The notes under the pieces are model-generated. The model made no database searches and was not told the DNA's origin. It saw only the letters and a program-made list of their open reading frames with translations. Below, one piece after another: positions 11,665 to 34,671 of a DNA stretch of 46,145 bases. Source of the DNA: a virus; IMG/VR virus record IMGVR_UViG_3300037087_000773; one strand, written 5' to 3'. Each line of letters begins with the position of its first letter. Position 1 is the first letter of the stretch. Made by a program: the position numbers and the translations under genes.

Positions 11665-11665
11665 T

Positions 11666-13501: not shown

Positions 13502-13521
13502 AATTGTTTTTTATTGTTTTT

Positions 13522-13533: not shown

Positions 13534-13645
13534 AATCAACTCATTTTTGAACTGAATAACTTTTCTATATAAAGTATCAAAAACAATTTGTTTTAACAAA
13601 CTTTAATGATTTTTATACCATATAATGAAAAAATCAAATTAATCA

Positions 13646-16600: not shown

Positions 16601-18493
16601 GATGGATATTTACAAAAGATGATAGAACAAATTGACAAAAATACAGGGATGGTTGTTTGTCGTATTCATTTTAATGATAAAGAATGGCTGAATTTAATAT
16701 TACCCCCTGATGATAGATTGATACCAGCCAAAATAGATCATCTTTCTATCCTCTTTAAAAGTGATATAGCAAAGAAATTTACATGGGATAATGATTGGGG
16801 TCAAGATCATCGTTTTATAAATAATTGTGAAAGATTATGTAATGAAAAAGGATTTGAAATAAAATATATTCCAAATATTCTTGCCAATCATCGTTATTTA
16901 AAAAGAGAGAATAGAATTGACGAATTATTAAAAGAAAAAAGATTAGAACAATATGATGATGATAATGGTGTAAATAGATTATTTGGATTAAAAAACATGA
17001 TAGATGAAAATCTAAACAAAGAATCTATAATATGTGAAGTAGGATCGTTTGATGGTAAATCCTCTGAATTGTTTGCACTATTAACTAAAAAGGTTTATTG
17101 TGTTGATCCTTGGGTTTTATATTCTCAGATAGATGATGAATCTATGATTAAATCCGAAGAAAAATTTGATAAATTATTGAATAAGTATAACAATATAATT
17201 AAAATAAAAAATTACAGTATAGAAGCCTCGAAAACATTTGAAAATGAATTTTTGGATTGTGTTTATATTGATGGTAATCATGATTATGAACCAGTTAAAC
17301 AAGATATCTTACATTGGATTCCAAAAATAAAAAGGGGAGGGTTCATAAGTGGACACGATTATCATTTTGAGGGAGTAAGAAAATCTCTAAATGAATTATT
17401 TCAAAATATTCCGATAAAAGTTTATTCCGACCAAAGTTGGGTTGTAAAAATAAATGATTATAGAAAGGGTGAAAAACCACATAAAGAAGTAGTCATTATG
17501 ACATCTCACCCAAACTATAAAATGTCAGAAGATATAACTAAACTGGCCATTAATTCTTTTGATAATAAAGATGTGATATTATCTGTACATTGTCCAGTAT
17601 CCATAGAATTACAAAATAAAGTAAAATATTTATTATATGATAAAAATAATCCCTTAATTCGTCATGATTATTATAATCAAAGTTGGTTTGAAACGACTGA
17701 ATATTATTCATTGATTAAACTTCATTATAATGATAATGATTTTCAACACGCTTTGGCTGTTTATATTAATTATTACAATGGTATAATGTATGCTAAATCA
17801 TTGGGTTATACGACAGCTATTTGTACCAATTTTGATATAGTTTTCAGTAAAGAAGATCTGAAAATAGTTGACGAAAAAATTAGTGAAATGTATCAATCTG
17901 GAAAAAAATCATTCTTTATGACATCAAATCCGAGTGAGGGAATACATTATAAAACAATTTTCTTTATAACAGATGTGGATTTCTTTTTGAATAATTTTAA
18001 ATATGTAACCAATGAGAAAGATTATAACAAACTAACCAGAGAAGTAGGATCTGAAACAAATTGTTTAGAGAATTTTTTCTATGAAACTTTAAAAAATTCA
18101 GATAAATTATTACTTCAACAAATAGAAGAAAAGGAATTATTTTCAAAAAGTAAGGTGAATATGTTCTCAAATATAGAATATTTCACTATTCTCCCACTGA
18201 GAGATGATAATGAACATTTTGTTATTTGGTTTAGTTCAGCAAATTCGATTGATAATAGGTCTATTGGAATCCATGTCCTAAAAGGAAGGGAAGCTATTTT
18301 TAGCCACAGTGGAAATATCAGTAAGGATTATAAATTCTATAAGGAAATAAAATTCGAGAAGGACTGTAATTATGAAGTAATATGTAATGTATATTACGAT
18401 GATATGGTAAATCAGAAAACAATTACCGTCAATAACGATGTTTTCTATAACAAATTAAAAGATTACGGAGATTTCTGGAAGAAATCAGTATAA
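13646..18493 (+). CDS. 1615-aa multidomain glycan-tailoring enzyme (FkbM-MT / GT-A / unknown / class-I MT / GT2 / class-I MT / unknown)
   Basis: Around aa 10-190, FkbM-like (AGQDVFAYYI...GYFIDIGSGTPIGMNNTYLLEKNGWNGLNFD). Around aa 205-330, GT-A domain (ICLYTMCINEEEFLPFFLDYYTNYVGVDKIVIYDGGSTD). Around aa 700-870, class-I SAM methyltransferase of Methyltransf_24 type (HFVEIGSWLGKST...DFVFIDGAHDYESVKKDINDWYPKVKDNGVIAGHDY). Around aa 890-1100, GT2 (ISIIIPTYNRPDILTECINSVLKQNYENLEIL...FLDDDN). Around aa 1130-1250, a second Methyltransf_24 domain (ICEVGSFDGKS...CVYIDGNHDYEPVKQDILHWIPKIKRGGFISGHDY). The aa 440-690 region and the C-terminal roughly 330 aa are unassigned. Confidence 0.8.
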   Translation: MNQIDDIIKSSNSQAGQDVFAYYICDTNNGYFIDIGSGTPIGMNNTYLLEKNGWNGLNFDFWDNRKSYEESRRTPYIMEDVNKINMSNFLEKMNSPKVVDYLSIDIDENTDYFLSNNFPTDYEFKVITFEHNLYLDGDSLKNKSKNFFIEHGYTLLCENVALSFTSKYDVFEDWYINEKYIDIKKFEFLKSCGLHFTEIINKIKEHELNNIKICLYTMCINEEEFLPFFLDYYTNYVGVDKIVIYDGGSTDKSHSIINSYPNTELILEHDDKTDSFRDLRIWNEEWKKCRNDYDWMIVCTPDEFLYHPDLRNKLIEYKKNGITIPNVEGFDMISLNHPNYDKGNYLPNQIKRGIKDSTFLNKNIIFNPKEIDINYHVGCHGCNPTGNIKFSEEYDFKLLHYKWISYDFLMRDSKRKYERLSDKMLETGAGGHYKVFIQKTYEEYVQRYNQTIQVLEEEKDINLFWHCYLINNWVKIFKNQLNKIVDSGLYEKLNTIHLHYFGKPEEVKILSELISRYDKIKSYEIEDNFYEYPTIKHIHKFSSVNNSYVGYIHLKGVWSSMNKEKNIEAINSWRKCLEYFNIEKWDNCISKINEGYEVVGALYNYNEKDPLFSGNFWWTTTDYIKKLKYPQYDPSKNPYPMDDGTWCRVECEKWINTIPNKFYNFYIPKDYGFYQVPIDENDYKDKKTINHIYENIEGWFDFEKIYSDMVNRFPNGSHFVEIGSWLGKSTSYMGAEISNSGKKIKFDSIDTWEGSKGSWDEQVQNDTINNLNISLYQKFLENVRPVKDYINPIQGWSYDVVNRYEDKSLDFVFIDGAHDYESVKKDINDWYPKVKDNGVIAGHDYNIHDWPGVVQAVNEFFNEGNVSSVKKDTWSWIVDKKEFEDSKQKNHKISIIIPTYNRPDILTECINSVLKQNYENLEILICHDGFFSEFYCYDYKTTDKRIFYYNTDNQYNNLGAAQRNMMISKVTGDYILFLDDDNILYDGYLQKMIEQIDKNTGMVVCRIHFNDKEWLNLILPPDDRLIPAKIDHLSILFKSDIAKKFTWDNDWGQDHRFINNCERLCNEKGFEIKYIPNILANHRYLKRENRIDELLKEKRLEQYDDDNGVNRLFGLKNMIDENLNKESIICEVGSFDGKSSELFALLTKKVYCVDPWVLYSQIDDESMIKSEEKFDKLLNKYNNIIKIKNYSIEASKTFENEFLDCVYIDGNHDYEPVKQDILHWIPKIKRGGFISGHDYHFEGVRKSLNELFQNIPIKVYSDQSWVVKINDYRKGEKPHKEVVIMTSHPNYKMSEDITKLAINSFDNKDVILSVHCPVSIELQNKVKYLLYDKNNPLIRHDYYNQSWFETTEYYSLIKLHYNDNDFQHALAVYINYYNGIMYAKSLGYTTAICTNFDIVFSKEDLKIVDEKISEMYQSGKKSFFMTSNPSEGIHYKTIFFITDVDFFLNNFKYVTNEKDYNKLTREVGSETNCLENFFYETLKNSDKLLLQQIEEKELFSKSKVNMFSNIEYFTILPLRDDNEHFVIWFSSANSIDNRSIGIHVLKGREAIFSHSGNISKDYKFYKEIKFEKDCNYEVICNVYYDDMVNQKTITVNNDVFYNKLKDYGDFWKKSV

Positions 18494-19830: not shown

Positions 19831-21230
19831 TAAAAATCTAACATTATCTACAAGAAATTACCAAAACTTACAAGTAAAAATAAATATGGAAAAAATCGGT
19901 ATTTTTAATTAATATATAGTATTTATAAGAAAGGGAATAAAACACCACCTTTTTTGTAATCTATGTTGAAAGCAATTAAAATACGATTATATCCAACGAA
20001 AACTCAAACAAGTTACATTAACCGCTTGTGTGGTTCATATCGTAAAGTATATAATATGTGTCTGGAAAAGAAGATAAACGCTTATAACAATGATAAAACC
20101 AGTTTAGGACTAACTGAACTTGGTCATTATTTTCATAACGAACTGACCAAGACAGAAGCGTTTTCATACCTGAATGAACATAACACCAAAGTGCTGAAAC
20201 AATCTGTCATAAATTTGTTAGATAGTTACAAACGATTCTTTGTTAACAACACAGGTTTCCCAAAATATAAATCCAAACACGATAATCAATCAGCCAGATT
20301 TCCGATTGAAGGTATATCAAAGTATAATATTTATTCAGATAACCGTGTAACGCTTGGTAAGTCATTGAAGAAAGTTAAATTTGAATGCTCAGACAGAGAT
20401 AAAACATATCTAACCAATTATAAAGATAAAATAAAGTCAGCAACACTATCCAGAACTAAATCTGATAAATATTTTCTTTCTATTTTGATTGAAAATATTA
20501 TAGAACCGATGGTAAATCCGACCAATGATATCATAGGTGTTGATGTTGGCATCAAGGATTTTATGGTTTGTTCAGATGGTCAGGTATTTGATAACTTGAA
20601 ATTAAAACGAAATAATGAAAAGACATTGGTTAAACTTCAACGCCAGTTATCGAAAAAAGTTGTTGGGAGTCATAATAGATATAAAGCCAAGGTAAAACTT
20701 GCAAGAAAATATGAAAAATTAAATAATAAGAAAATAAATTACATACATAACATTACAACTCAATTAGTTCGTGAGAACCAAACGATTGTTATTGAAGATT
20801 TGAATGTTAAAGGTATGATGAAAAACCATTGTTTGGCAAAGTCAATTCAAGACCTTTCAATTAATGAAACATTTAGACAATTAAAGTATAAATGTGAATG
20901 GTATGGAAGAGATTTGGTAGTGATAGATAGATGGTTTCCAAGTAGTAAACTATGTTCAAACTGTGGATATAAGTATAAAAACTTATCATTAAAAGAAAGA
21001 GATTGGGTGTGCCCTGATTGTGGTACACACCATTCAAGGGATTTCAACGCAGCGACAAACATAGTTAACGAAGGAAAGAGATTGATAGGTAGCCGTTCTA
21101 CCGAATTTACGCTTGCGGAGTATCCGCTTATGGATGACAAGGGAGTAATCCCCCTAAAAAGTAATGATACGATGAAACAAGAAGAATCAAATTTAACAAG
21201 GTTGTAGATTTTGTTAGATTTATTTTAACG
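19826..21230 (+). mobile_element. IS605/IS607-type (TnpB/Fanzor-like) element inserted into a GNAT gene
   Basis: Imperfect terminal inverted repeat: AAATCTAACA at 19834-19843 is reverse-complemented by TGTTAGATTT at 21212-21221. About 20 of 25 flanking positions match as an extended inverted repeat. The only ORF inside is tnpB. The GNAT reading frame stops just before the left repeat and resumes right after 21228. Confidence 0.55.
19963..21207 (+). CDS. tnpB: TnpB / OrfB RNA-guided-endonuclease-like transposon protein (414 aa)
   Basis: N-terminus IKIRLYPTKTQTSYINRLCGSYRKVYN (OrfB_IS605 N-terminal). RuvC-I IGVDVGIKDF. RuvC-II TIVIEDLNVKGM. Zinc finger CSNCGYKY...CPDCG. RuvC-III HSRDFNAATNI. 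All catalytic residues are present. Confidence 0.85.
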   Translation: MLKAIKIRLYPTKTQTSYINRLCGSYRKVYNMCLEKKINAYNNDKTSLGLTELGHYFHNELTKTEAFSYLNEHNTKVLKQSVINLLDSYKRFFVNNTGFPKYKSKHDNQSARFPIEGISKYNIYSDNRVTLGKSLKKVKFECSDRDKTYLTNYKDKIKSATLSRTKSDKYFLSILIENIIEPMVNPTNDIIGVDVGIKDFMVCSDGQVFDNLKLKRNNEKTLVKLQRQLSKKVVGSHNRYKAKVKLARKYEKLNNKKINYIHNITTQLVRENQTIVIEDLNVKGMMKNHCLAKSIQDLSINETFRQLKYKCEWYGRDLVVIDRWFPSSKLCSNCGYKYKNLSLKERDWVCPDCGTHHSRDFNAATNIVNEGKRLIGSRSTEFTLAEYPLMDDKGVIPLKSNDTMKQEESNLTRL

Positions 21231-22769: not shown

Positions 22770-23309
22770 TTATCCCTTTCTAAGTTGATTAAATTCTAAT
22801 GTCAATGGAGTTTTTCTACCAAATATTTTTACTGATACAGTAATTCTTCTTTTTTCCTCATTAATTTCATCAACAGTAGCATTGAAATTAGCGAAAGGAC
22901 CATCTGAAATAGTAACATTTTCCCCAATAACAAAAGGTATTTTAACTGAATCTGGACTTTCATTCATTTCATCAAGTTTCCCTAATATTCTCGCCACTTC
23001 AACATCTCTTAAAGGTTCTGGTGTACCACCCTTTGGTCCAAGAAAATGAAGAGCCCCAGTAATACTTTTTAAAATTCCTGTGAATTCACCACACATTTCG
23101 GCCTCTAAGAGGATATATCCCGGAAAATAGTTAACTTCACGAGTAACTTTCTTTCCATTTTTCACATAAAATTCCTTATGAGTAGGTATCACAATTTGAG
23201 ATACCTTATCTTTAAGCCCGTATTTTTCTATTTCACTTTCAAATTGTTTCTTAACTCTTTTTTCCCATCCACTATTTGAACGGATTACATACCATCTCAT
23301 ATTTGACAT
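22770..23309 (-). CDS. nusG: transcription termination/antitermination factor NusG (bacterial type, 179 aa)
   Basis: NGN domain: RWYVIRSNSGWEKRVKKQFESEIEKYGLKDKVSQIVIPTHKEF...VNYFPGYILLEA. The E. coli equivalent is RWYVVQAFSGFEGRV...VMVPTEEV...RKFFPGYVLV. KOW motif: FVIGENVTISDGPFANFNATVDEINEEKRRITVSVKIFGRKTPLTLEFNQL (E. coli [51 protein letters not shown]). It is not in the canonical secE-nusG-rplK context. Confidence 0.85.
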   Translation of the reverse strand: MSNMRWYVIRSNSGWEKRVKKQFESEIEKYGLKDKVSQIVIPTHKEFYVKNGKKVTREVNYFPGYILLEAEMCGEFTGILKSITGALHFLGPKGGTPEPLRDVEVARILGKLDEMNESPDSVKIPFVIGENVTISDGPFANFNATVDEINEEKRRITVSVKIFGRKTPLTLEFNQLRKG

Positions 23310-23327
23310 ATTTATAAATATTATTTT

Positions 23328-23756
23328 TTAATCTTCTTCTGCCATATAACAATTTTCATTATGATTTATGAAATTAATAACTGGTAAAAATAAATCCATA
23401 TTATTCATTTCATGTGGATAAAACCATCCAATATCTGAAAATTTATTTGGTTCATTTATTATTGGTTCACCATCCAGATAATAAGCAGACATCCAAATAG
23501 TCACATAATGTTCGTTCTCTTTTTCGAAAAAATCATTTGTTATTCCAACAAATAATGGTTTGGATATAACGATATTATCACCAGCTTCTTCTTTAAATTC
23601 TCTCATTGCACAATTATCAATACTTTCTCCGAATTCGATCTTACCTCCCGGTGGACACCATGTATTCGTACCCAATACACCAGTTCTTTTTAATAAAAGA
23701 TATTTACCATCTCTTTCTACATTAACGGCAACTCCAACTCTAACTACTTTATCCAT
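23328..23756 (-). CDS. NUDIX hydrolase (142 aa)
   Basis: Nudix box GGKIEFGESIDNCAMREFKEEAG (G-x5-E-x7-R-E-x2-E-E-x-G). Confidence 0.75.
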   Translation of the reverse strand: MDKVVRVGVAVNVERDGKYLLLKRTGVLGTNTWCPPGGKIEFGESIDNCAMREFKEEAGDNIVISKPLFVGITNDFFEKENEHYVTIWMSAYYLDGEPIINEPNKFSDIGWFYPHEMNNMDLFLPVINFINHNENCYMAEED

Positions 23757-24448
23757 ATTATTTTTTTTAATACATTTTCTTTTATTTTACCATATAGTTC
23801 ATCATCTTTTATTCTTATAAATTGGCATTTCAACGATTCTTCTATAATTTTTTGTCTTTTGATATCTTTATTTTTTAAATTTCCAAATACATCATAATGA
23901 TGTCTTTCATCCACTTCTAAACAAATATTAAGTTCTTTAACATATCCATCTACAGAATACGCCTTTACTTTAAATTGTCTTATTATTTTATAATTAATGA
24001 AATTTTCGATATAATCTAATATTTTAATTTCGTTTACTCCAATGCGTATATAACCAAGTTTTTCACATTTTTCTATCAAAAATTTTCTTCTTTTCTCTTG
24101 TACTTCTGGATCAAACAAAGGATTATTTTTCTTCATTCTTTCACTCTGATCAAAATTTTGTTTCCCCTTCCAATATTTAGGATTATCATTCCCTGTTAAT
24201 TTACCTTTTCTGTTTTTAGATATTTTCTCTCTAACCTCCGATCTTTTGGCTGGATTTTTATCACCCATCTTCGTTATTCTTATCTTATTTCCTATTTCCT
24301 GTGACTTTTCAGATCCAAAAACCTCAACAAAAGTTTTTCCTTTTAATTTAGATGGATGTCCCTTCTTCCCACGACCATTATGACCATTAATATAAGTATT
24401 ACCCGATTTTACTTCTTTACCACAACCACAGTCACATAAATTATTCAT
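23744..24448 (-). CDS. free-standing homing-endonuclease-like protein (N-terminal Cys cluster, NUMOD3 repeats, C-terminal PD-(D/E)xK/EDxHD-like nuclease)
   Basis: N-terminus CDCGCGKEV...NGHNGRGKKGH. It carries repeated NUMOD3-like units (GDKNPAKRSEVREKISKNRKGK; KGKTFVEVFGSEKSQEIGNKI). The C-terminal YSVDGYVKELNICLEVDERHHYDVFGNLKNKDIKRQKIIEESLKCQFIRI resembles Vsr/DUF559-type and EDxHD (I-Bth0305I-like) nucleases. It overlaps the NUDIX gene by 13 nt. Confidence 0.55.
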   Translation of the reverse strand: MNNLCDCGCGKEVKSGNTYINGHNGRGKKGHPSKLKGKTFVEVFGSEKSQEIGNKIRITKMGDKNPAKRSEVREKISKNRKGKLTGNDNPKYWKGKQNFDQSERMKKNNPLFDPEVQEKRRKFLIEKCEKLGYIRIGVNEIKILDYIENFINYKIIRQFKVKAYSVDGYVKELNICLEVDERHHYDVFGNLKNKDIKRQKIIEESLKCQFIRIKDDELYGKIKENVLKKIIWIK

Positions 24449-24468
24449 TTTTAATATATTATTTACTA

Positions 24469-24927
24469 TTATATATTAAAAGTTAACCCATTTTTTAACT
24501 TTTCAAATAATTCTTCTATACTAAAACAGACATTTCCACCATTACACATACAAAAAGCATACATTATATCCCACCTTTCGGGTTCTTCATCAAATAAAAC
24601 GAAACATTTTTTTCCACATCCAACCATATAACCTAATTCCAAATGACAAGATTTCCCAGCTGGCATTACCAAAATAGCTATATCACTTCTATCCAAATGA
24701 CTTTTATCAAATTCGAAAATATGTTTACCAGCCCATCCATTTAAAGCTTGTTTATAGGTACTATTTTTTGTTTTTTCGTATTTTCTCCAAAATTCATCAG
24801 CTTCTGGTCCGGGAGAAAACCAATCATCAAATACTTCAAATCCTATTTCTCTCAATTGATTTCCAATAATAGGAATATTTTCATTTCTTAATGATCCTAT
24901 TAAATAAATACATGGTGTTTTCTTCAT
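24469..24927 (-). CDS. nucleoside 2-deoxyribosyltransferase-like protein (152 aa)
   Basis: N-terminus IYLIGSLRNENIPIIGNQLREIGFEV (IYLAGPF-type). The conserved acidic core is DIAILVMPAGKSCHLELGYMVGCGKKCFVLF (compare DSGTAFEIGYAYALGKPV). Confidence 0.55.
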   Translation of the reverse strand: MKKTPCIYLIGSLRNENIPIIGNQLREIGFEVFDDWFSPGPEADEFWRKYEKTKNSTYKQALNGWAGKHIFEFDKSHLDRSDIAILVMPAGKSCHLELGYMVGCGKKCFVLFDEEPERWDIMYAFCMCNGGNVCFSIEELFEKLKNGLTFNI

Positions 24928-24986
24928 TAATTCTAAATTATTTTCTGTTTATATGAATCCGTATCTAAATTGTTTATCTTTTTAGT

Positions 24987-24998
24987 TGGATTGACCCC
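24987..24998 (+). promoter_or_regulatory. GC-rich 12-mer TGGATTGACCCC in the divergent intergenic region heading glycan cluster II
   Basis: This is the second copy, sharing 11 of 12 positions with 13522-13533. It lies 34 nt upstream of the 25032 ATG and 60 nt upstream of the 24927 start on the other strand. Confidence 0.4.
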
Positions 24999-25031
24999 GT
25001 TTTCTCCAATATATAAGAATAAAAAACCAAC

Positions 25032-26399
25032 ATGATTAAATTAATTGTATTTGATTTAGATGGGGTTTTAGTATCTACAAAAGAACTTCATTACTTTTCC
25101 CTGAATAGGTCTTTATGTGATATTGATTCTAAATATGAAATTGGTTTAAATGAACACTATGAAATGTATGATGGACTACCGACAATGAGGAAACTAAAAA
25201 TGTTAACTCAATATAAAGATTTACCATCGGAATTATATGACCAGATAAATAGGAATAAACAAAAATACACATTTGATCTTATCAGAGAAACCATCAAAAA
25301 AGATGAAAGACTTATAGAGTTATTGAAAAAGCTAAAGAGTGAAAATTTCAAAATTTATGTCGCATCAAATTCAATTCGTGAAACAACTAAACTTTTATTA
25401 TATTACACTGGTTTATTAGAATATGTTGACTTCTATATATCAAATGAAGATGTAAAAAATCCCAAACCAAATTCAGAAATGTACTTACATTGTATGATTG
25501 ATGCTGGGGTTAATCCAGATGAAACATTAATTGTCGAAGATTCTCCAAGAGGTATCGAATCGGCCAGAAACGCTAAAAGTCATATATTGATAGTCCAGAA
25601 TCCAGAAGATTTGACATATGAAAAAATACACCATTCCATGATACATGATAATAAACCAGTAAAATTAAAACTATCTAACTTTAATATTTTAATTCCAATG
25701 GCTGGGGCTGGAACAAGATTTCAAAAAGCCGGGTTCACTTTTCCTAAACCATTAATTGAAGTCAATGGAAAACCAATGATACAAGTTGTAATTGACAATT
25801 TGGGATTTGAAGCCAATTATATTTATGTGGTTCGTAAAGAACATTATGAAAAATTTAATCTCAAGAATTTCTTGAACTTAATAACTCCAAATTGTAAAAT
25901 AATTCAAGTGGATGAATTAACTGAAGGAGCGGCTTGTACAACCTTGTTAGCTAAAGAATATATAAATAACGACAATCCATTAATTATAGCCAATTCCGAT
26001 CAGTTTTTAGAATGGAATCCGATGGATTTTTATTATAAAATGATTGAAACTAAATCAGATGGTGGAATTGTAACATTTCGTTCAACTCACCCAAAATGGT
26101 CATTTGCGAAAATAAATGAATTCGGAAATGTTGTTGAAGTGGCCGAAAAAAACCCGATTAGTGATATTGCCACCGTTGGTGTTTATTATTATAAAAAAGG
26201 TTCTGAGTATGTCAAATATGCCGAACAAATGATAAGTAAAAACATAAGAGTAAACAATGAATTCTATGTCTGCCCAATATACAATGAATATATTGGTGAT
26301 GGTAAAAAAATTAGAACACATGATATAGATAAAATGTGGGGTATAGGTACACCCGAAGATCTCGAATACTTCATAAACAATTATAATCAAAAAAAATAA
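25032..26399 (+). CDS. bifunctional HAD-superfamily hydrolase/phosphomutase-like (N-terminal) plus sugar-phosphate nucleotidyltransferase (C-terminal)
   Basis: N-terminus IKLIVFDLDGVLVST (DxDG motif I)...LIVEDSPRGIESARNA (HAD-IA). C-terminus ILIPMAGAGTRFQKAGFTFPKPLIEVNGKPMIQ (NTP_transferase G-x-G-T-R signature)...IANSDQF. Confidence 0.75.
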   Translation: MIKLIVFDLDGVLVSTKELHYFSLNRSLCDIDSKYEIGLNEHYEMYDGLPTMRKLKMLTQYKDLPSELYDQINRNKQKYTFDLIRETIKKDERLIELLKKLKSENFKIYVASNSIRETTKLLLYYTGLLEYVDFYISNEDVKNPKPNSEMYLHCMIDAGVNPDETLIVEDSPRGIESARNAKSHILIVQNPEDLTYEKIHHSMIHDNKPVKLKLSNFNILIPMAGAGTRFQKAGFTFPKPLIEVNGKPMIQVVIDNLGFEANYIYVVRKEHYEKFNLKNFLNLITPNCKIIQVDELTEGAACTTLLAKEYINNDNPLIIANSDQFLEWNPMDFYYKMIETKSDGGIVTFRSTHPKWSFAKINEFGNVVEVAEKNPISDIATVGVYYYKKGSEYVKYAEQMISKNIRVNNEFYVCPIYNEYIGDGKKIRTHDIDKMWGIGTPEDLEYFINNYNQKK

Positions 26400-26406
26400 A
26401 AAACAC

Positions 26407-26646
26407 ATGAAAACATTAAAAAATGAATTGAATTTAAAAGGAATTAAAAATTGGAGTTTAATATTTGGAGGATCTGATCCAGATATAAAACCAACAATCT
26501 TATTAAGATTTAATGATGATAGAATTGAATCTTTACTTCTTAATAAAGAAGAAATAAAAAAAATAAAAAATTCAAAAGAAGGAGAATTCCAAAAGGAAGT
26601 AGAAAAAATCATATTGAATAAATTGCAAAAATCCGAATTAGAATAA
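26407..26646 (+). CDS. hypothetical small protein (79 aa)
   Basis: ORF within the operon, starting 7 nt after the upstream stop. K/E-rich. Confidence 0.35.
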   Translation: MKTLKNELNLKGIKNWSLIFGGSDPDIKPTILLRFNDDRIESLLLNKEEIKKIKNSKEGEFQKEVEKIILNKLQKSELE

Positions 26647-27314
26647 TGAAAGTAGCTCTCCTTTTAACTGGTTATTTAAGAAAATATAAAGAATGTTTCA
26701 ATAGTTTATATCAAAATTTATTATCCAAATATGATATAGATATTTATTGTTCGACTTGGAATAAACAAGAAAATGGAATCATAATTGACGAAAAATATTT
26801 CGATATTTATAATCCAAAAAAAATCATCATAATTGATGTTGATGAATATAATAAAATCAAACCAATATTCAAAAAATTACAAAGAGAAAACGATGTTTTT
26901 GATATTGATCAAAGAGCTAAATGGCATGGTGAATATTGGGTTAATAGATTAATGGATCAATGGTATATAGTGAAGAAATCTTTTGAATCCATAGAGAATT
27001 CAGAACAATATGATAAATTTTTCAGACTTCGTTATGATGTTTTATTGAATAATTTTATTTTATTAGATAACGACCATCTAACAATTCCACGAGATGAATC
27101 TTTTGTGTGGGATTATAGTGATCACATGGCTTATGGAAATTATGATGCTATGTATAAATATTGTCATTTTTATGACCATATTTTCAAACTTTATGAAAAA
27201 TATAATATAGATGTATCACACGCGGTTAATATGCTGAAATTCTACATGGGTGAATATGAACCAAAAGTTGAAACAACAGTAGATGTTAATCTCGTGTATA
27301 AAATAAACAAATAA
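26646..27314 (+). CDS. hypothetical protein (222 aa), weakly paralogous to 30102..30896
   Basis: VALLLTGYLR...IYCSTWNKQENG versus the 30102 gene's VIFRGSVLYAG...VIVSTWKGQEEH. The similarity is low. Confidence 0.45.
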   Translation: MKVALLLTGYLRKYKECFNSLYQNLLSKYDIDIYCSTWNKQENGIIIDEKYFDIYNPKKIIIIDVDEYNKIKPIFKKLQRENDVFDIDQRAKWHGEYWVNRLMDQWYIVKKSFESIENSEQYDKFFRLRYDVLLNNFILLDNDHLTIPRDESFVWDYSDHMAYGNYDAMYKYCHFYDHIFKLYEKYNIDVSHAVNMLKFYMGEYEPKVETTVDVNLVYKINK

Positions 27315-27316
27315 CG

Positions 27317-28444
27317 ATGAACATATTAATACCAATGGCCGGTTTAAGTACCAGATTTCTTAACGAGGGTATAAAAACACCTAAACCATTAATTAAAGTA
27401 AATGGAAAGACACTCATTGAACATTCTGTTAGTTCATTAAATATTCATGGACATTATATATTTATTACTCGTAAATATGAAAATCCACAAGATAATATCG
27501 ATTTATCAGAAGAACTAAAAAGATTAGTTCCTAATTGTTTGGAAATTTGTTTAGACAAACCAACCAGAGGAGCCACCGAAACCTGTTTAATGGCCGAACA
27601 ATGGATTAATACTGATGAAGAACTCATAATAACAAATTGTGATCAAATAACAAATTGGAAATCTGGTGATTTTTTAAAAAATATCGGTCAATATTCAGAT
27701 TTTCCAGATGATTATCCTTTTCCAGATGGTGGTTGTGTAGTAACATATACTTCTGATAATCCAAAAAACAGTTTTGCTATTGTTGAAAATGGGCAAGTAA
27801 CACAAATTGTTGAAAAAAAGGTCGTATCTAATATAGCCCTTATCGGTGTTCATTATTGGAAAAAAGGAAAATATTTTGTCGAATCGGCAAAACAACTCTT
27901 AGAAAGTTTTGAAAAAACTGGAGTACCCGAATGTTATATTTCCGAAACTTATAATTTTCTTATTAAAAAGGGACTCAGAATTACAAATTATCATGTCAAA
28001 GAAAATCAATATATTTCCCTTGGTACACCCTATGATTTAATGATTTATGAATCAAAAATAAAGGAATATTTCACTGATAAACCAAAAACCATTTTCATTG
28101 ATTTAGATGGAACAATAATTCATCATCTTCATAGATTTAGTGATGTCGTGAAAGAAGAACCAACTTTGTTAGAGGGGGTTATTGAAAAAATAAATGAATG
28201 GGATTCACATGGTCATAGAATCATTTTTGTAACCGCAAGAAAAGAATCAGCAAGAGAGATGACTGAAAATCAATTGAGAAAACTCGGTTTATGTTGGGAT
28301 CAATTAATAATGGGTGTGTCTAATGGAATCAGAGTGATGATTAATGATAAATTAGACGAAGATAATCCAGATCGTACAATATCAATTAATTTGAAAACCA
28401 ATAGTGGATTTAAAAATATAAAGTGGGGTGATTACGGATTATGA
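27317..28444 (+). CDS. bifunctional sugar-phosphate nucleotidyltransferase (N-terminal) plus HAD-like phosphatase (C-terminal)
   Basis: N-terminus MNILIPMAGLSTRFLNEGIKTPKPLIKVNGKTLIEH (NTP_transferase). C-terminus TIFIDLDGTIIHH...IIFVTARKESAREMTENQLRKLG...MINDKLDED (HAD motifs I-IV). The domain order is the reverse of the 25032 gene. Confidence 0.75.
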   Translation: MNILIPMAGLSTRFLNEGIKTPKPLIKVNGKTLIEHSVSSLNIHGHYIFITRKYENPQDNIDLSEELKRLVPNCLEICLDKPTRGATETCLMAEQWINTDEELIITNCDQITNWKSGDFLKNIGQYSDFPDDYPFPDGGCVVTYTSDNPKNSFAIVENGQVTQIVEKKVVSNIALIGVHYWKKGKYFVESAKQLLESFEKTGVPECYISETYNFLIKKGLRITNYHVKENQYISLGTPYDLMIYESKIKEYFTDKPKTIFIDLDGTIIHHLHRFSDVVKEEPTLLEGVIEKINEWDSHGHRIIFVTARKESAREMTENQLRKLGLCWDQLIMGVSNGIRVMINDKLDEDNPDRTISINLKTNSGFKNIKWGDYGL

Positions 28445-29403
28445 AATTATACAGAATCGAAGATATGAAAGGTGGTTGGTTCGTTGGTAATTTTGAACCA
28501 ACCATTTTTAAAACAAAAGAATGTGAAGTATCTTATAAAGTCCACAAGAAAGGTGAAATTTGGGATATTCATTATCATGATGTTTGTACAGAGATAAATC
28601 TACTCATAAGAGGTGAGATGATAATGCAAAATAAAACTTTAAAGCCGGGAGATATATTTGTTCTCGAACCATTTGAAATAGCAGATCCGACATTCTTAGA
28701 AGATTGTGAAATTATATGTGTTAAAGTTCCATCAATAAATGACAAAATATCTGTGATTAAAAAGGAAATCACACAGGTAAAAGAATCCACGCAAAGAACA
28801 GAAATGGACTTCAGAGAATTGATAAAACCAAAGGGATGCACTTTTATTCAAATTGGTTCTAATGATGGAATTAAAAATGAAAATTGCGGTTTTAGAGAAG
28901 AAGTTTTAGAACATGAACATAATGTTATAATGATAGAACCAATTCCTTCTTTTTTTAATCAATTAAAATTAAATTATAAAAATAGTAAATCTCATATACA
29001 ATTTGAAAATTGTGCAATAACTGAAAGTAATCAAGAAAAAAGCATTTATCTCAATGATGAAGAAAGTTCTTTTTGTGTGATTAAAGATAGAGACCCGAAT
29101 AATTTTTTAAAAGTAAAATGTAAAACAATTCACGATATTATAAAAGAATATAACATAACACATATAGATGGTTTATTTATTGATGCCGAAGGTTATGAAT
29201 ATTTGATATTAAAAAATTTATTTGAAAAAAAGAACATCCCGAATATAAATTTCATAAGATACGAATTTGTACTTAGTGAAAATATTAATGGATTAGATGA
29301 ACTATTAGTAAACAATGGATTTAGAATATTCAAGGATTCAACTGAAGGTGGAGATAAAATCGCTGTTAATAATAAATTAATACAAAAATTAAAAATAATA
29401 TAA
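28441..29403 (+). CDS. cupin-domain (N-terminal) plus FkbM-family methyltransferase (C-terminal) fusion
   Basis: Cupin: GGWFVGNFEP...HKKGEIWDIHYHDVCTEINLLIRGEMIM...KPGDIFVLEP. FkbM: CTFIQIGSNDGIKNE...IMIEPIPSFF...IDGLFIDAEGYEYLILKNL. It overlaps the upstream gene by ATGA. Confidence 0.65.
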   Translation: MKLYRIEDMKGGWFVGNFEPTIFKTKECEVSYKVHKKGEIWDIHYHDVCTEINLLIRGEMIMQNKTLKPGDIFVLEPFEIADPTFLEDCEIICVKVPSINDKISVIKKEITQVKESTQRTEMDFRELIKPKGCTFIQIGSNDGIKNENCGFREEVLEHEHNVIMIEPIPSFFNQLKLNYKNSKSHIQFENCAITESNQEKSIYLNDEESSFCVIKDRDPNNFLKVKCKTIHDIIKEYNITHIDGLFIDAEGYEYLILKNLFEKKNIPNINFIRYEFVLSENINGLDELLVNNGFRIFKDSTEGGDKIAVNNKLIQKLKII

Positions 29404-29409
29404 AAAAAT

Positions 29410-30102
29410 ATGTTTGGACAATTATCAACCCATGTGGGGAAAAGAGTTAATTTCGTTATAAATAAGATGGACTTATCCAATATAAAGGAAATATTAGACA
29501 TCGGATCATGGCATTTAAATCAAAGTCATGAATTTCATGATATTTTTCCTGATGCGAATGTAAATGCATTTGAACCAGTACCAGATTCATATCAACTTTG
29601 TTTAAATAACAATCGTTGTCCAGATAAAATATCTGTTCACAATTTGGCATTAACCGATTTTAATGGTGAAACTAATTTTTATCCAGTAGATCCTGTTAAA
29701 AGTTCAGATCCAAATGTGGGAGCTTCATCACTACTGAAATTCATGGATGGTTTAAATGGTAGTTTCTTTAACCAGAACTGGATTCAAAATGAGATTATTG
29801 TTAAATGTTCAACTTTGGATAATTGGTGTCAAACTTATGGAAAAAAAATAGATATAATTTGGATAGATGTTCAAGGAGCCGAACTTAAAGTTTTCAAAGG
29901 GGCAGACAATACATTGAATGATGTGAAAATAATATTTACTGAAGTTGGACTTAAACCTTATTATGTAGGACATAGTTTAAAAAATGAAATTGATGAATAT
30001 CTAATAAGTAAGGGATTTGTAGAATTAACCGAATCTTTTGAATTGAACGGGTTTGATTACGAAGCAAATACTATATATTGTAAAAAGGAATTTTTATTGT
30101 AA
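29410..30102 (+). CDS. FkbM-family methyltransferase (230 aa)
   Basis: ILDIGSWHLNQSHEF...VNAFEPVPDSY...IDIIWIDVQGAELKVFKGA. Confidence 0.7.
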   Translation: MFGQLSTHVGKRVNFVINKMDLSNIKEILDIGSWHLNQSHEFHDIFPDANVNAFEPVPDSYQLCLNNNRCPDKISVHNLALTDFNGETNFYPVDPVKSSDPNVGASSLLKFMDGLNGSFFNQNWIQNEIIVKCSTLDNWCQTYGKKIDIIWIDVQGAELKVFKGADNTLNDVKIIFTEVGLKPYYVGHSLKNEIDEYLISKGFVELTESFELNGFDYEANTIYCKKEFLL

Positions 30103-30896
30103 TGAAGAAATCTGTCATTTTTAGGGGTAGTGTTTTATATGCCGGTGCTGCAAGTCGAGATATTCCAAAAAATTATCTGAAAGAATCTGTAATTAAATTA
30201 AGAGAATGGTTTGATGGGGAAGTCATTGTTTCAACTTGGAAAGGTCAGGAAGAACATTTAAAAGGAATTGACGGGATAGATAAAGTCGTACTTACTGATG
30301 ATCCCGGTCCGGGACCAGTTCAACACATAAAAAGACAAACATTATCTTATATAAATGGAATAAAGGAATCAACTGGAGATTTATTAATGGTTACACGAAC
30401 TGATATTTCTCATGAAGTAGATCCCTTCCCATATTTATTTGAATTAAAACAAAATGATGGTGCTTTTAGAGTATTTGATGAAAGAATAATAACTGGAAAT
30501 ATGATGACCATCTATCCAGATGGCCCAGAATATCCAAGTCATTTTAGAATTTGTGATTGGTTTCAAATTGGAAAAAGAGAAGATATTTTCAAATGGGGTG
30601 ATATTTTTGGATTAATAAACAATGATATCATTATTGGTAATCCCTGTACGGAACAAATTTGGTCTTTATCTGTATTGAAAAAATACTATGATGATTCAAT
30701 AGACTATCACAACATCGAACCAATAAAAAAATACGCTTGGGATTATTTACTTAATAATTTCAGAATCTTAGACATGAAATCTACCTTGAAAGCTCTAAAT
30801 CATAATTGGAATTTTCAACCTGAATACCTCCCATGTTATATAACAGAAAAAATGTATAATGATGTGTACATTTCAAAATATAAGGAACTAAAATGA
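30102..30896 (+). CDS. hypothetical protein (264 aa)
   Basis: Intact ORF with a 1-nt overlap (TAATG) with the upstream gene. It is weakly similar to 26646..27314. Confidence 0.45.
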   Translation: MKKSVIFRGSVLYAGAASRDIPKNYLKESVIKLREWFDGEVIVSTWKGQEEHLKGIDGIDKVVLTDDPGPGPVQHIKRQTLSYINGIKESTGDLLMVTRTDISHEVDPFPYLFELKQNDGAFRVFDERIITGNMMTIYPDGPEYPSHFRICDWFQIGKREDIFKWGDIFGLINNDIIIGNPCTEQIWSLSVLKKYYDDSIDYHNIEPIKKYAWDYLLNNFRILDMKSTLKALNHNWNFQPEYLPCYITEKMYNDVYISKYKELK

Positions 30897-31822
30897 AAGA
30901 TATACTATTTTTTAACTTCGATTGGGTGCCGAACTCGACCTATATTTTTAAATCATTTGAAAATTGTGGGTATTCATGTGATTGGGTAAATGAACAGTCA
31001 GTGTATGGATTTGTTCCAACAACAGAATATAAAATGATGATTGTTTATTTACATGAAAGGAATTATGCGGTTAATCCTATTTTAGTTCATCCTCTTTTAA
31101 AAAATACATTCATGGTTCAACATGATGATACTGATTTTGAAAATGTACAACAATACTATGTTCGTAAACCAGATATGATAATGCAAAGGGAACTCACCCC
31201 AGATACAGTAAATCCTTATGATTGTCCAGTTTATCCACATCATTTTCCAATTTATACGATTTACAAAGAGGGAATAATTAAAGACATTGACATATCTTTT
31301 ATAGGAACGCCCACAAATGGTAGAAGATTAAGTTTTATTGAACATATTATTAGATTATCAAAGAATGAATTGAAACATTTGAAATGGTATATACTTTATG
31401 AACAAAATAGACAAAGAGATAATTATGTAAATATTGTAAATAGAACCAAAATAGGGTTGAATTATCCGGGGAACTCATATGATACATGGAGAAATTGGGA
31501 ACAAGCAAGTGCGAAAGTTGCGACCATTCAACCGAAATTAAAAGTATTATCCTGTTCTGAGGGTCATATGCCTTATAATGATTATTTGGAAATAAAACTT
31601 GATCATTCTGATCTGGAAGAAAAGATTAATTATTTACTGGAAAATGAAAGATATAAAGAATTAGCTGAGAAATCATTTAATTCATATAACAATTTTCACA
31701 CCCCAGAAAAATGCTTCGAAAAATATTATGAAATGATAATGCGACACGCCCCCGAATCATTGGAAAGAAAACCGATTATTCCATTATCAGCTGAACCATT
31801 TTATAGAAATGTACATAAATAA
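30893..31822 (+). CDS. hypothetical protein (309 aa), possibly a glycan-processing enzyme
   Basis: ATGA overlap with the upstream gene. No confident motif. Confidence 0.45.
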   Translation: MKDILFFNFDWVPNSTYIFKSFENCGYSCDWVNEQSVYGFVPTTEYKMMIVYLHERNYAVNPILVHPLLKNTFMVQHDDTDFENVQQYYVRKPDMIMQRELTPDTVNPYDCPVYPHHFPIYTIYKEGIIKDIDISFIGTPTNGRRLSFIEHIIRLSKNELKHLKWYILYEQNRQRDNYVNIVNRTKIGLNYPGNSYDTWRNWEQASAKVATIQPKLKVLSCSEGHMPYNDYLEIKLDHSDLEEKINYLLENERYKELAEKSFNSYNNFHTPEKCFEKYYEMIMRHAPESLERKPIIPLSAEPFYRNVHK

Positions 31823-31825
31823 AAT

Positions 31826-32035
31826 ATGGAATGTACAATAAAAAAATTGACAGATAATAAAATACCGGGTGTAAATTACCTGATAAGATATCGTGATGGT
31901 AAATATGATAGAACTTTATGGGTTGATACCTTTGATATTGACGAAATTAAAAAAAATTTCTCTAATCTTCCTGATGAAGTTATGTCAGGTATTATAAACT
32001 TAGACAGAAAAATAAAATTGGACGATATATTATGA
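31826..32035 (+). CDS. hypothetical small protein (69 aa)
   Basis: ORF within the operon, with ATGA overlap with the downstream gene. Confidence 0.3.
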   Translation: MECTIKKLTDNKIPGVNYLIRYRDGKYDRTLWVDTFDIDEIKKNFSNLPDEVMSGIINLDRKIKLDDIL

Positions 32036-32484
32036 AATTAATATCACACCGAGGAAATATAAATGGTAAAATTCCAGAAAGAGAGAATTCCCCAGATTAC
32101 ATTTTAGAAGCCTTACAAAAAGGATTTGATGTAGAAGTTGATATTTGGTGGACATGGAAGAATGAATCTTTTGGATGGTATACTGGACATGATGAACCAA
32201 CATATCCAATCATTCTATTTGACTTCTATAAATATTTTAATAGATTGTGGTTTCATTGCAAAAATTTAGATGCTTTATATAAGCTAACTGTATATGACTT
32301 TGAATGTTTTTGGCATCAAAATGATGATTTTACTTTAACCTCAAAAAATCATATATGGACATTTCCGGGGAAACCATTAAGTGAACATTCCGTTTGTGTT
32401 CTACCAGAACAAACTGATCTCTTAAAAGACTATAGCAATTGTTACGGAATATGTAGTGATTACATAGAAGAATATAAGGATTAA
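32032..32484 (+). CDS. short glycerophosphodiester-phosphodiesterase (GDPD)-like protein (150 aa)
   Basis: N-terminus LISHRGNINGKIPERENSPDYILEALQKGFDVEVDIW resembles the GDPD motif block (HRG...EN(T/S)...E-x-D). It is much shorter than canonical GDPDs. Confidence 0.4.
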   Translation: MKLISHRGNINGKIPERENSPDYILEALQKGFDVEVDIWWTWKNESFGWYTGHDEPTYPIILFDFYKYFNRLWFHCKNLDALYKLTVYDFECFWHQNDDFTLTSKNHIWTFPGKPLSEHSVCVLPEQTDLLKDYSNCYGICSDYIEEYKD

Positions 32485-32544
32485 TATTTTTTTATTTCGG
32501 ATATTTATCGTACCTTTGTACTGTCAATCTAAAATCATATCATT

Positions 32545-34653: not shown

Positions 34654-34671
34654 TTTTAAAAATTTAAAGCC

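What the first reader, a model, noticed from the sequence alone, without database searches (positions are those of the whole stretch)
23744..24448. Free-standing homing endonuclease with NUMOD3 repeats and an EDxHD/Vsr-like nuclease, wedged between operon genes
The domain combination comprises an N-terminal Cys cluster, at least two NUMOD3-like DNA-binding units, and a C-terminal PD-(D/E)xK nuclease with an E-V-D-E-R-H-H core. This combination is characteristic of phage free-standing homing endonucleases (I-Bth0305I type). Its 13-nt overlap with the NUDIX gene and the 20-nt gap to the upstream gene fit an intergenic homing-endonuclease-gene insertion. This supports a phage-like or mobile character for this block.
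Basis: partly seen in the sequence, partly recalled or inferred. Interest (0 to 1): 0.5.

Follow-up and report, generated by a model that had tools for sequence, protein, structure and literature searches.

The report
Homing-type nuclease gene tied to one neighbour
This is an intact gene for a selfish, site-specific DNA-cutting enzyme of a kind common in phages; its only unusual trait is that it always sits directly after one conserved nucleotide-metabolism gene, and in this genome the two genes seem to have arrived together.

Summary
The ORF at 23744-24448 (minus strand, 234 aa) is real, and the 20-nt gap and 13-nt overlap are as described.

- **Domains.** The C-terminal 100 aa form a Vsr-like PD-(D/E)xK nuclease. 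Pfam DUF559 scores above its cutoff, fold matches include I-Bth0305I, AbaSI, NGO0050 and Vsr, and all catalytic residues are invariant. The N-terminus has an invariant C-x-C-G-C...H cluster. The middle region is a diverged NUMOD3-type DNA-binding region: Pfam does not call it here, but it does in 26 of 44 wider relatives.
In all 11 independent contexts of this subfamily, the gene starts -8 to +29 nt from the stop of a nucleoside-deoxyribosyltransferase-like (NDT-like) gene. The downstream genes all differ. Only 1 of 27 viral NDT-like loci carries the nuclease gene, and none of 164 loci of more distant nuclease relatives has an NDT-like gene nearby. Relatives of this genome that keep NUDIX-NusG lack both genes.
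- **Verdict.** It is most likely a free-standing homing endonuclease whose home is the 3' end of the NDT-like gene, acquired here as a two-gene block rather than wedged into an operon. No cleavage or recent mobility is shown. It is an ordinary kind of element and a new member of it.

The parts
23744..24448 (-). Whole endonuclease ORF (234 aa plus stop)
   Evidence: ORF list. Homologues reach E 1e-84. An identical protein occurs on 15 contigs from several samples, and a gene of the same block lies on a contig of 736 kb.
24377..24436 (-). N-terminal Cys/His cluster (aa 5-24, C-x-C-G-C-G...I-N-G-H-N), presumed zinc knuckle
   Evidence: C5, C7, G8, C9, G22, H23 and N24 are invariant in the subfamily alignment. 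The same motif heads the wider family consensus. The AF2 model is of low confidence here, so zinc binding is inferred.
24056..24364 (-). Helical, basic repeat region (aa 29-131), a diverged NUMOD3-type DNA-binding module
   Evidence: Pfam NUMOD3 is not called. aa 49-96 is 56% identical to the NUMOD3-bearing region of GIY-YIG protein P0020. PHROG 12434 'HNH endonuclease' matches aa 46-109. 26 of 44 wider relatives are NUMOD3-positive. The family profile hits the I-TevI DNA-binding domain 1i3j at E 0.03. The model shows a string of helices.
23747..24046 (-). C-terminal Vsr-like PD-(D/E)xK nuclease domain (aa 135-234). Catalytic candidates are E140, D167, E178/D180/E181, H183/H184, D195 and R198
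   Evidence: DUF559 scores above its cutoff. 15 of 17 members hit DUF559 and 13 of 17 hit PvuRts1I-like_N. Profile alignments to PvuRts1I and AbaSI place the residues on the catalytic D61, E72, D74, E75, H77 and H78 of AbaSI (PMC4081097). Foldseek finds 3r3p, 4par, 3hrl and 1vsr. pLDDT is about 90.
24449..24468 (.). 20-nt spacer between the NDT-like gene stop and the endonuclease start
   Evidence: Sequence. In other lineages the same junction is -8 to +29 nt, and a 1-nt stop/start overlap occurs in four of the eight lineages measured.
24469..24927 (-). NDT-like gene (152 aa): constant left-hand partner and probable home or target gene
   Evidence: PHROG 12607 'nucleoside deoxyribosyltransferase', E 4e-18. 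Pfam Nuc_deoxyrib_tr is sub-threshold. More than 3000 homologous clusters exist. The gene lies immediately upstream of the endonuclease gene in all 11 subfamily contexts.
24928..25009 (.). Block-specific upstream intergenic stretch; left border of the lineage-specific two-gene block
   Evidence: DNA homology to relative L055 runs across window 26401..25010 and resumes at 23756. The right border is therefore 23757-23783, but that junction is A/T-rich and only weakly alignable.

Best explanation
The ORF encodes an intact free-standing homing-type endonuclease. Its N-terminal zinc-type knuckle and a string of NUMOD3-type basic helices would bind a long DNA site. Its C-terminal Vsr-like PD-(D/E)xK domain would cut DNA with Mg2+, using D167, E181 (with E178 and D180), H184 and D195.

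This subfamily's home is the 3' flank of a conserved phage NDT-like gene. The inferred mechanism is as follows. During co-infection the enzyme cuts NDT-like alleles that lack the endonuclease gene. The break is repaired from the allele that carries it, which copies the endonuclease gene, and flanking NDT-like sequence by co-conversion, into the recipient.

In this genome the NDT-like gene and the endonuclease gene form one lineage-specific block, about 23757-25009. The block lies between the divergently transcribed HAD/nucleotidyltransferase gene and the NUDIX-NusG genes, and was probably acquired as a unit.

Shown here: the anatomy, the conserved catalytic residues, the fixed position, the patchy distribution, the empty sites, and the joint absence in relatives. 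Inferred: zinc binding, site-specific cleavage, the target lying in or next to the NDT-like gene, and homing.
For: Domains:
- DUF559 scores above its cutoff.
- Profiles match PvuRts1I and AbaSI across the catalytic core.
- Foldseek finds I-Bth0305I, AbaSI, NGO0050 and Vsr. 91 viral models match at E<=1e-3, including ones named homing endonuclease, NUMOD3 and DUF559.
- D167, E178 and E181 are invariant and E140, D180, H184, D195 and R198 nearly invariant over 44 homologues of 30-59% identity.
- The DNA-binding module is shared with a GIY-YIG enzyme at 56% identity. NUMOD3 is present in 26 of 44 wider relatives.

Position:
- In the eight contexts measured base by base, the endonuclease gene starts -8 to +29 nt from the stop of the NDT-like gene. 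Three further contexts from the metagenome scan show the same adjacency.
- Nothing downstream is shared between these contexts.

Patchiness:
- 1 of 27 viral NDT-like loci carries the gene.
- There are more than 3000 NDT-like clusters against about 16 endonuclease clusters.
- Endonuclease-positive and endonuclease-negative alleles are interleaved in the NDT-like tree.

Filled versus empty sites:
- L013 has NDT-isochorismatase with a 12-nt gap. L042 has NDT-endonuclease-87aa-isochorismatase, and L004 is similar.
- L019/L020 compare the same way with L024, where 79% DNA homology stops within 9 nt of the NDT-like stop.

Specificity: none of 88 plus 76 loci of more distant nuclease relatives has an NDT-like gene nearby.

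Window lineage: L053, L055, the P0144 contig and L228 keep NUDIX, mostly with NusG, but have neither gene next to it.
Against: - No recent mobility is visible. Endonuclease copies in different contexts are only 54-76% identical, and their divergence tracks that of the NDT-like gene (r = 0.56). This also fits long vertical co-inheritance with repeated loss.
- No amino-acid or nucleotide position in the NDT-like gene separates linked from unlinked alleles. The best Fisher p is 0.009 over 459 columns, so no immunity or target signature was found.
- No decayed endonuclease remnants were found at empty sites.
- Downstream flanks differ between genomes, so a simple two-armed homologous repair is not obviously available.
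- Stop/start overlaps look like an operon partner.
- Neither cleavage activity nor a target site is known.
Confidence: 0.65

Rival explanations
1. The NDT-like gene and the nuclease gene are a two-gene selfish cassette that moves as a unit. The endonuclease mobilises its neighbour, by long co-conversion tracts or illegitimate insertion, into genomes that lack either gene. It would not simply home into pre-existing NDT-like genes.
For: Relatives of this genome lack both genes at the NUDIX locus, and the lineage-specific DNA equals the two genes. The NDT-like gene is 65-77% identical across otherwise unrelated phage contexts. The tails of the two ORFs resemble each other more than 98% or more of control ORF ends in 6 of 8 loci.
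Against: At least 95% of NDT-like genes occur without the endonuclease in equally varied contexts, so the NDT-like gene spreads without it. The tail resemblance shows no cognate specificity and is weak at DNA level. Contigs of the relatives are short, so an NDT-like gene elsewhere in those genomes is not excluded.
Confidence: 0.17
2. The nuclease is a domesticated working partner of the NDT-like enzyme and is not mobile. For example, it might degrade host or competitor DNA to feed nucleotide salvage, or exclude related phages.
For: The genes are tightly coupled, with stop/start overlaps. The pair persists down to about 55% identity with catalytic residues kept. NDT-like genes sit among nucleotide and NAD-salvage genes. 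The nuclease core resembles that of modification-dependent restriction enzymes.
Against: The partner is dispensable for the great majority of NDT-like genes. The long modular DNA-binding region is typical of site-specific homing enzymes and is shared with a GIY-YIG homing-type enzyme. There is no SRA-like or other modified-base reader. No PADLOC system hit goes beyond the nuclease core.
Confidence: 0.13
3. It is a decaying, inactive relic of an old insertion.
For: No recent transfers are seen. The NUMOD3 units have drifted below Pfam detection.
Against: The ORF is intact. The catalytic residues, the Cys/His cluster and 66 other columns are invariant across 13 subfamily members of 55-64% identity. 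An identical protein occurs on 15 contigs.
Confidence: 0.05

Closest known systems
EDxHD / Vsr-like homing endonucleases (I-Bth0305I; the free-standing phage Hef enzymes were placed in this family by Taylor et al. 2011, PMC3239194)
   Same: The domain order is the same: the DNA-binding region is N-terminal and the Vsr-like nuclease is C-terminal. The composite E...D...H...D residues have similar spacing: E140-D167-H184-D195 here against E170-D196-H213-D222. The fold matches 3r3p (TM 0.66 on the target). It lives in a phage and, like Hef, is free-standing.
   Different: I-Bth0305I is intron-encoded and uses two NUMOD2/HTH motifs. This protein has a Cys/His knuckle plus NUMOD3-type repeats. Family profiles do not reach the I-Bth0305I sequence at E<=10. 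The core here is E-x-D-E-x-H-H, as in PvuRts1I and AbaSI.
DUF559 (PF04480) phage and bacterial Vsr-like nucleases; NGO0050 (3hrl)
   Same: This is the best curated sequence family. The window protein scores above the cutoff, and 30 of 44 wider relatives match. The fold match has TM 0.64.
   Different: DUF559 names only the nuclease domain and says nothing about function. The N-terminal DNA-binding modules and the linkage to the NDT-like gene are extra.
PvuRts1I / AbaSI N-terminal cleavage domain
   Same: These are the best solved-structure sequence matches. The catalytic D and E-x-D-E-x-H-H residues are shared (PMC4081097). PADLOC mREase_II matches over the same core.
   Different: Those enzymes read 5hmC with a C-terminal SRA-like domain, which this protein lacks. 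The nuclease here is C-terminal and preceded by homing-type DNA-binding modules.
I-TevI and Seg-type GIY-YIG free-standing endonucleases of T4-like phages
   Same: They share a modular zinc finger plus NUMOD3 minor-groove helix DNA-binding region (1i3j hit; 56% identity to a GIY-YIG/NUMOD3 protein). They share the free-standing lifestyle next to a conserved nucleotide-metabolism gene.
   Different: The nuclease class differs (GIY-YIG against Vsr-like), and the domain order is reversed.

Membership tests
Vsr-like PD-(D/E)xK nucleases (Pfam DUF559) | Sequence match to the curated family model above its cutoff | tested here: met
   PF04480 scores 22.8 bits against a 20.6-bit cutoff over aa 149-230. 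15 of 17 close relatives and 30 of 44 wider relatives match.
Vsr-like PD-(D/E)xK nucleases (Pfam DUF559) | Vsr-type alpha/beta fold | tested here: met
   The AF2 model has pLDDT of about 90 over aa 140-215. Foldseek finds 3r3p, 4par, 3hrl, 1vsr and 1cw0 at probability 0.96-1.0 and E 3e-3 to 4e-2.
Vsr-like PD-(D/E)xK nucleases (Pfam DUF559) | Conserved metal-binding and catalytic acidic residues and His | tested here: met
   D167, E178 and E181 are invariant, and E140, D180, H184, D195 and R198 are at least 90% conserved, over 44 sequences. They align to AbaSI D61, E72, D74, E75, H77 and H78, and to the PvuRts1I core (PMC4081097).
EDxHD homing endonucleases (I-Bth0305I type) | Composite E, D, H, D catalytic residues | tested here: met
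   E140, D167, H184 and D195 are present with spacings of 27, 17 and 11, against 26, 17 and 9 in I-Bth0305I (PMC3239194). The mapping runs through the AbaSI/Vsr correspondence, not through a direct superposition.
EDxHD homing endonucleases (I-Bth0305I type) | Detectable sequence homology to I-Bth0305I | tested here: not met
   Profiles of 17 and 44 sequences find no 3r3p sequence match at E<=10. Only a fold-level match exists.
EDxHD homing endonucleases (I-Bth0305I type) | N-terminal NUMOD-type DNA-binding region (NUMOD2/HTH in I-Bth0305I) | tested here: inconclusive
   An N-terminal DNA-binding region is present, but it is of the zinc-knuckle plus NUMOD3 type, not NUMOD2.
EDxHD homing endonucleases (I-Bth0305I type) | Site-specific double-strand cleavage next to the insertion site | not testable with these tools
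   This needs enzyme assays.
NUMOD3 (PF07460) | Match to the NUMOD3 model | tested here: not met
   There is no hit in the window protein, its fragments or the 15 close relatives at E<=1 to 10. Indirect support comes from P0017 (E 9e-16) and 26 of 44 wider relatives, 56% identity to the NUMOD3 region of P0020, and I-TevI 1i3j at E 0.03.
PvuRts1I-type modification-dependent restriction enzymes | SRA-like modified-cytosine-binding domain joined to the Vsr-like nuclease | tested here: not met
   Only the nuclease core matches. The rest of the 234-aa protein is the Cys/His cluster and the NUMOD3-type repeats.
Free-standing homing endonuclease genes (functional class) | Patchy presence at one fixed position beside a conserved gene, with empty-site alleles | tested here: met
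   11 of 11 contexts lie directly 3' of the NDT-like gene. 1 of 27 viral NDT-like loci carries the gene. Filled and empty pairs were found.
Free-standing homing endonuclease genes (functional class) | Signs of recent horizontal movement (near-identical copies in different backgrounds) | tested here: not met
   The highest identity between contexts is 75.7%.
Free-standing homing endonuclease genes (functional class) | Cleavage of the endonuclease-free allele and biased inheritance | not testable with these tools
   This needs biochemistry and phage crosses.

The most novel reading that the evidence does not exclude
The endonuclease gene and the NDT-like gene together form a self-contained mobile cassette. 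The endonuclease would use the NDT-like gene both as landing pad and as cargo. The NDT-like C-terminal tail repeated at the end of the endonuclease ORF would be a relic of insertion inside the 3' end of the NDT-like gene, and would serve as a built-in right-hand homology arm. This would let the element enter any genome that has the NDT-like gene, whatever lies downstream. It would also help explain why a 65-77% conserved NDT-like gene is scattered through unrelated phage genomes.
Probability: 0.12. Interest if true: 0.6.

Novelty: new member of a known kind. Interest (0 to 1): 0.3.

Why it matters
- It adds a well-delimited subfamily, with a named home gene, to the Vsr-like branch of phage homing endonucleases. 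This architecture is common in metagenomes (6501 representative clusters at E<=1e-3), but very few members have a known target.
- The strict pairing with one conserved gene gives a concrete substrate for finding the recognition site. It could yield a new long-site nuclease.
- For annotation of this genome, it shows that the NDT-like gene and the endonuclease gene are an accessory block inserted at a variable junction. They are not part of the NUDIX-NusG unit.

Tried and rejected
1. **Immunity or target signature in the NDT-like gene.** No amino-acid column separates linked from unlinked alleles, and the best nucleotide column has p = 0.009 over 459 columns. Inconclusive.
2. **Decayed endonuclease remnants at empty sites.** None at E<=5.
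3. **A scar at the right junction.** The 'LKKII' shared by the endonuclease tail and the C-terminus of the gene preceding NUDIX in L055 lies in A/T-rich, poorly alignable DNA. Not used.
4. **Tail duplication between the NDT-like and endonuclease ORFs.** It is significant against control ORF ends in 6 of 8 loci. It shows no cognate specificity and only marginal DNA similarity, and the tail helix lies within the DUF559 match. Left as unexplained.
5. **A 19-nt inverted repeat near the borders of the block (23807-23825 / 25006-25024).** One arm encodes the conserved QFIRIK strand and the other lies in a stretch shared with L055. Judged to be chance.
6. **Defence-system membership.** PADLOC gives only nuclease-core similarity to mREase_II and nothing for the NDT-like protein.
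7. **Direct Pfam NUMOD3 call, including on fragments and a consensus.** Negative.
8. **Identity of the window in the phage collection.** No megablast match. There are no tRNAs. Promoter-like sites are at the chance level and no terminators were found.
9. **Single-protein scans of viral contigs.** Scans with the endonuclease and NusG proteins found nothing, and the NUDIX scan found only distant relatives.
10. **The T4-like phage hit H2.** It is a 145-aa nuclease-only protein in the frd/td/nrd region. Not pursued as Hef.
Full report
**1. Observation**

The ORF is real. It runs 23744..24448 on the minus strand, starts with ATG and encodes 234 aa. A 152-aa gene ends 20 nt upstream of it (24469..24927). 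A NUDIX gene (23328..23756) begins 13 nt before its stop.

The N-terminus reads MNNLCDCGCG...INGHN. Basic repeats such as GDKNPAKRSEVREKISKNRKGK follow. The core LEVDERHH lies at aa 177-184.

The protein is not an orphan. About 16 metagenomic proteins are 55-64% identical over the full length. A profile of the family finds 6501 representative clusters at E<=1e-3 and 58 at E<=1e-30.

**2. Domains**

*Nuclease.*
- Pfam DUF559 matches aa 149-230 at 22.8 bits, above its 20.6-bit cutoff. 15 of 17 relatives hit DUF559 and 13 of 17 hit PvuRts1I-like_N.
- Family profiles searched against PDB sequences find only PvuRts1I and AbaSI for this region. Those alignments put D167 on AbaSI D61 and E178-x-D180-E181-x-H183-H184 on E72-x-D74-E75-x-H77-H78.
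- D61A and E75A abolish AbaSI activity (PMC4081097).
- The AlphaFold model has pLDDT of about 90 over aa 140-215.
- Foldseek returns the I-Bth0305I catalytic domain 3r3p (TM 0.66 on the target), AbaSI, the DUF559 protein NGO0050, Vsr, and RAP-domain mitoribosomal proteins.
- Over 44 homologues of 30-59% identity, D167, E178 and E181 are invariant. E140, D180, H184, D195 and R198 are at least 90% conserved.
- The composite E140...D167...H184...D195 has nearly the same spacing as E170, D196, H213 and D222 of I-Bth0305I (PMC3239194).

*DNA-binding part.*
- C5, C7, C9 and H23 are invariant in the subfamily. Zinc binding is inferred, because the model is poor in this region.
- Pfam NUMOD3 does not match this protein, fragments of it, or any close relative.
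- Three indirect lines nevertheless support a diverged NUMOD3-type region. aa 49-96 is 56% identical to the NUMOD3-bearing segment of a GIY-YIG endonuclease. 26 of 44 wider relatives that align over the full length are NUMOD3-positive, with best E 1e-23. The family profile's second-best PDB hit is the I-TevI DNA-binding domain 1i3j, over its zinc-finger and minor-groove-helix segment (E 0.03).
- Sharing one DNA-binding module between GIY-YIG and Vsr-like nucleases is typical of homing endonucleases.
- The viral structure library gives 91 matches at E<=1e-3. Among them are proteins named homing endonuclease, 'Nuclease associated modular domain 3', C2H2 zinc finger and DUF559.

**3.

*Fixed position.*
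- I looked at every context I could obtain for the close subfamily. These are the window, L001, L004, L006, L024, L039, L041 and L042, plus L148, L149 and L150 from the metagenome scan. L151 seems to repeat the L004 lineage.
- In all 11 contexts the endonuclease gene lies directly after a homologue of the window's 152-aa gene, which is 63-69% identical.
- In the eight contexts measured base by base, its start is -8 to +29 nt from that gene's stop, and four lineages have a 1-nt stop/start overlap.
- Nothing else is shared. The downstream genes all differ, and NUDIX and NusG are absent from those loci.

*The partner gene.*
- It is a nucleoside-2-deoxyribosyltransferase-like gene: PHROG 12607 at E 4e-18, with Pfam Nuc_deoxyrib_tr sub-threshold.
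- It belongs to a very large and very conserved phage family of more than 3000 clusters, the best 120 of which are 64-79% identical.

*Patchy distribution.*
- Only 1 of 27 viral loci with this NDT-like gene carries the endonuclease gene.
- In a neighbour-joining tree of the NDT-like proteins, linked and unlinked alleles are interleaved. The window's allele groups with the unlinked L012, L018 and L022.
- Conversely, none of 88 viral or genomic loci and none of 76 metagenomic loci that encode more distant relatives of the nuclease has an NDT-like gene nearby.
- The pairing is therefore specific to this subfamily.

**4. Filled and empty sites**

- L013 has dCMP deaminase, the NDT-like gene and isochorismatase, with a 12-nt gap after the NDT-like gene.
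- L042 has NDT, endonuclease, an 87-aa ORF and isochorismatase.
- L004 has dCMP deaminase, NDT, endonuclease, further genes and isochorismatase.
- L019 and L020 have the NDT-like gene followed by a small gene. In L024 that small gene lies behind the endonuclease gene and two small ORFs.
- DNA homology between L024 and L019 (79%) stops within 9 nt of the NDT-like stop codon.
- The left breakpoint is thus the very 3' end of the NDT-like gene.

**5. This genome**

- The exact protein lies on 15 contigs from several samples, one of them a 222-kb scaffold. Genes of the same block lie on a contig of 736 kb.
- The window is a glycosyltransferase-rich, 28% GC region with phage-type NusG (PHROG 6386) and a TnpB gene.
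- Relatives that keep NUDIX-NusG have neither the NDT-like gene nor the endonuclease gene within the stretches recovered. These are L055 (HAD/nucleotidyltransferase 91% identical, NusG 75%), L053, the P0144 contig and L228.
- DNA homology between the window and L055 covers 26401..25010 and resumes at 23756, the NUDIX start codon.
- The lineage-specific DNA is therefore about 23757-25009, which is exactly the two genes and their 82-nt leader.
- The slot upstream of NUDIX is variable. It holds a glycosyltransferase plus a 278-aa gene in L055, and TnpB plus an epimerase in the P0144 contig.
- So the gene is not an insertion between two operon genes. The upstream gene came, or stays, with it.

**6. 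Mechanism**

Best supported (confidence 0.65): this is a free-standing homing endonuclease whose home is the 3' flank of the NDT-like gene.

- Long-site recognition would be by the zinc knuckle and the NUMOD3-type helices.
- Cleavage would be Mg-dependent, by the Vsr-like domain.
- The enzyme would cut endonuclease-free alleles during co-infection. Recombinational repair would then copy the gene in.
- By analogy with other free-standing phage enzymes, the cut may lie some distance inside the conserved neighbour. The most conserved 24-nt stretches of the NDT-like gene start near nt 84-90 and nt 118. This is a prediction only.

Weak points:
- Copies in different contexts are only 54-76% identical, and their divergence partly tracks that of the NDT-like gene (r = 0.56).
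- No allele-specific signature was found.
- No remnants were found at empty sites.
- The downstream flanks differ between genomes.

Rivals:
- A two-gene cassette that moves as a unit (0.17).
- A domesticated working partner of the NDT-like enzyme (0.13).
- A dead relic (0.05). The last is contradicted by strong conservation of all functional residues.

**7. Comparison with what is known**

- The protein works like the EDxHD/Vsr-like homing enzymes (I-Bth0305I and the free-standing Hef) and like NUMOD3-bearing Seg and I-TevI enzymes.
- As to membership, it is a DUF559/Vsr-like nuclease by sequence, fold and residues.
- It is not demonstrably a sequence relative of I-Bth0305I, because the family profiles do not reach that protein.
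- It carries NUMOD3-type rather than NUMOD2 modules.
- It is not a PvuRts1I-type restriction enzyme, because it has no SRA-like domain.
- A literature search found no description of a homing endonuclease tied to a deoxyribosyltransferase-like gene. The held library does not cover all journals.

**8. Verdict**

This is an ordinary kind of element, correctly spotted. The modestly new points are the strict pairing with one conserved gene and the joint presence or absence of the pair in this lineage. Interest is 0.3, and it is a new member of a known kind.

Noticed in passing
window 24469-24927; loci L012-L037: The NDT-like gene is unusually conserved (64-79% aa identity among the best 120 of more than 3000 clusters), yet it sits in unrelated phage contexts. 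Its neighbours are often NAD-salvage or nucleotide genes: isochorismatase/nicotinamidase-like, NAD synthase, NAPRTase, dCMP deaminase, MazG-like and DUF4406-like. Its real substrate is unknown.
   Followed up: partly
L001, L004, L006, L024, L041 (3' ends of both ORFs); window 23744-23800 and 24469-24520: The last 10-14 residues of the endonuclease ORFs (...EELKxxLxKLK*) resemble the C-terminal tail of the adjacent NDT-like ORF. In L001 the two ends share 15 identical nt. The resemblance beats 98% or more of control ORF ends in 6 of 8 loci, but it has no cognate specificity and only weak DNA similarity.
   Followed up: partly
window 19963-21207 (+): An intact TnpB (IS200/IS605 OrfB, Cas12f-like TNB domain, 414 aa) lies 2.5 kb from the endonuclease gene. 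A 41%-identical TnpB lies just 3' of the NDT-like gene in L020/L021. Another lies in the variable slot upstream of NUDIX in the P0144 relative. Element ends and any guide RNA were not examined.
   Followed up: no
window 1-2424 (-): A protein of at least 807 aa carries major-vault-protein shoulder and repeat domains (PF11978 E 6e-26, PF17795 E 2e-11). This is unusual in a phage-like, glycosyltransferase-rich region.
   Followed up: no
window 4699-18493 and 25032-41214: There is a dense set of sugar-modification genes: GDP-mannose 4,6-dehydratase, C-methyltransferase, FkbM methyltransferases, several glycosyltransferase families, two HAD-nucleotidyltransferase fusions, and a 1615-aa multi-domain glycosyltransferase/methyltransferase. 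The gene order is rearranged relative to L053 and L055.
   Followed up: partly
window 22770-23756 (-); L053, L055, L229: A NUDIX plus bacterial-type NusG (PHROG 6386 'transcription antiterminator') gene pair is conserved across relatives, while everything upstream of NUDIX varies.
   Followed up: partly
window 23807-23825 and 25006-25024: A 19-nt inverted repeat (18 of 19 complementary) lies near the two borders of the NDT-endonuclease block. One arm encodes the conserved QFIRIK strand of the nuclease, so it is probably chance.
   Followed up: partly
L015-L017, about 800 nt 3' of the NDT-like gene; L012, 15 nt 3' of it: Other mobile-looking genes sit near the 3' flank of endonuclease-free NDT-like genes. 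One is a 202-aa ORF with a GIY-YIG-like N-terminus (L015-L017). Another is a 273-aa minus-strand ORF with a Cys-rich, transposase-like N-terminus (L012). Neither was scanned against family models.
   Followed up: no
L055 5180-6016: The 278-aa protein that precedes NUDIX in this relative ends with a tandem duplication (YSYELLLKKTIEDIKE / YSYELLLKKIIEDIKE).
   Followed up: no
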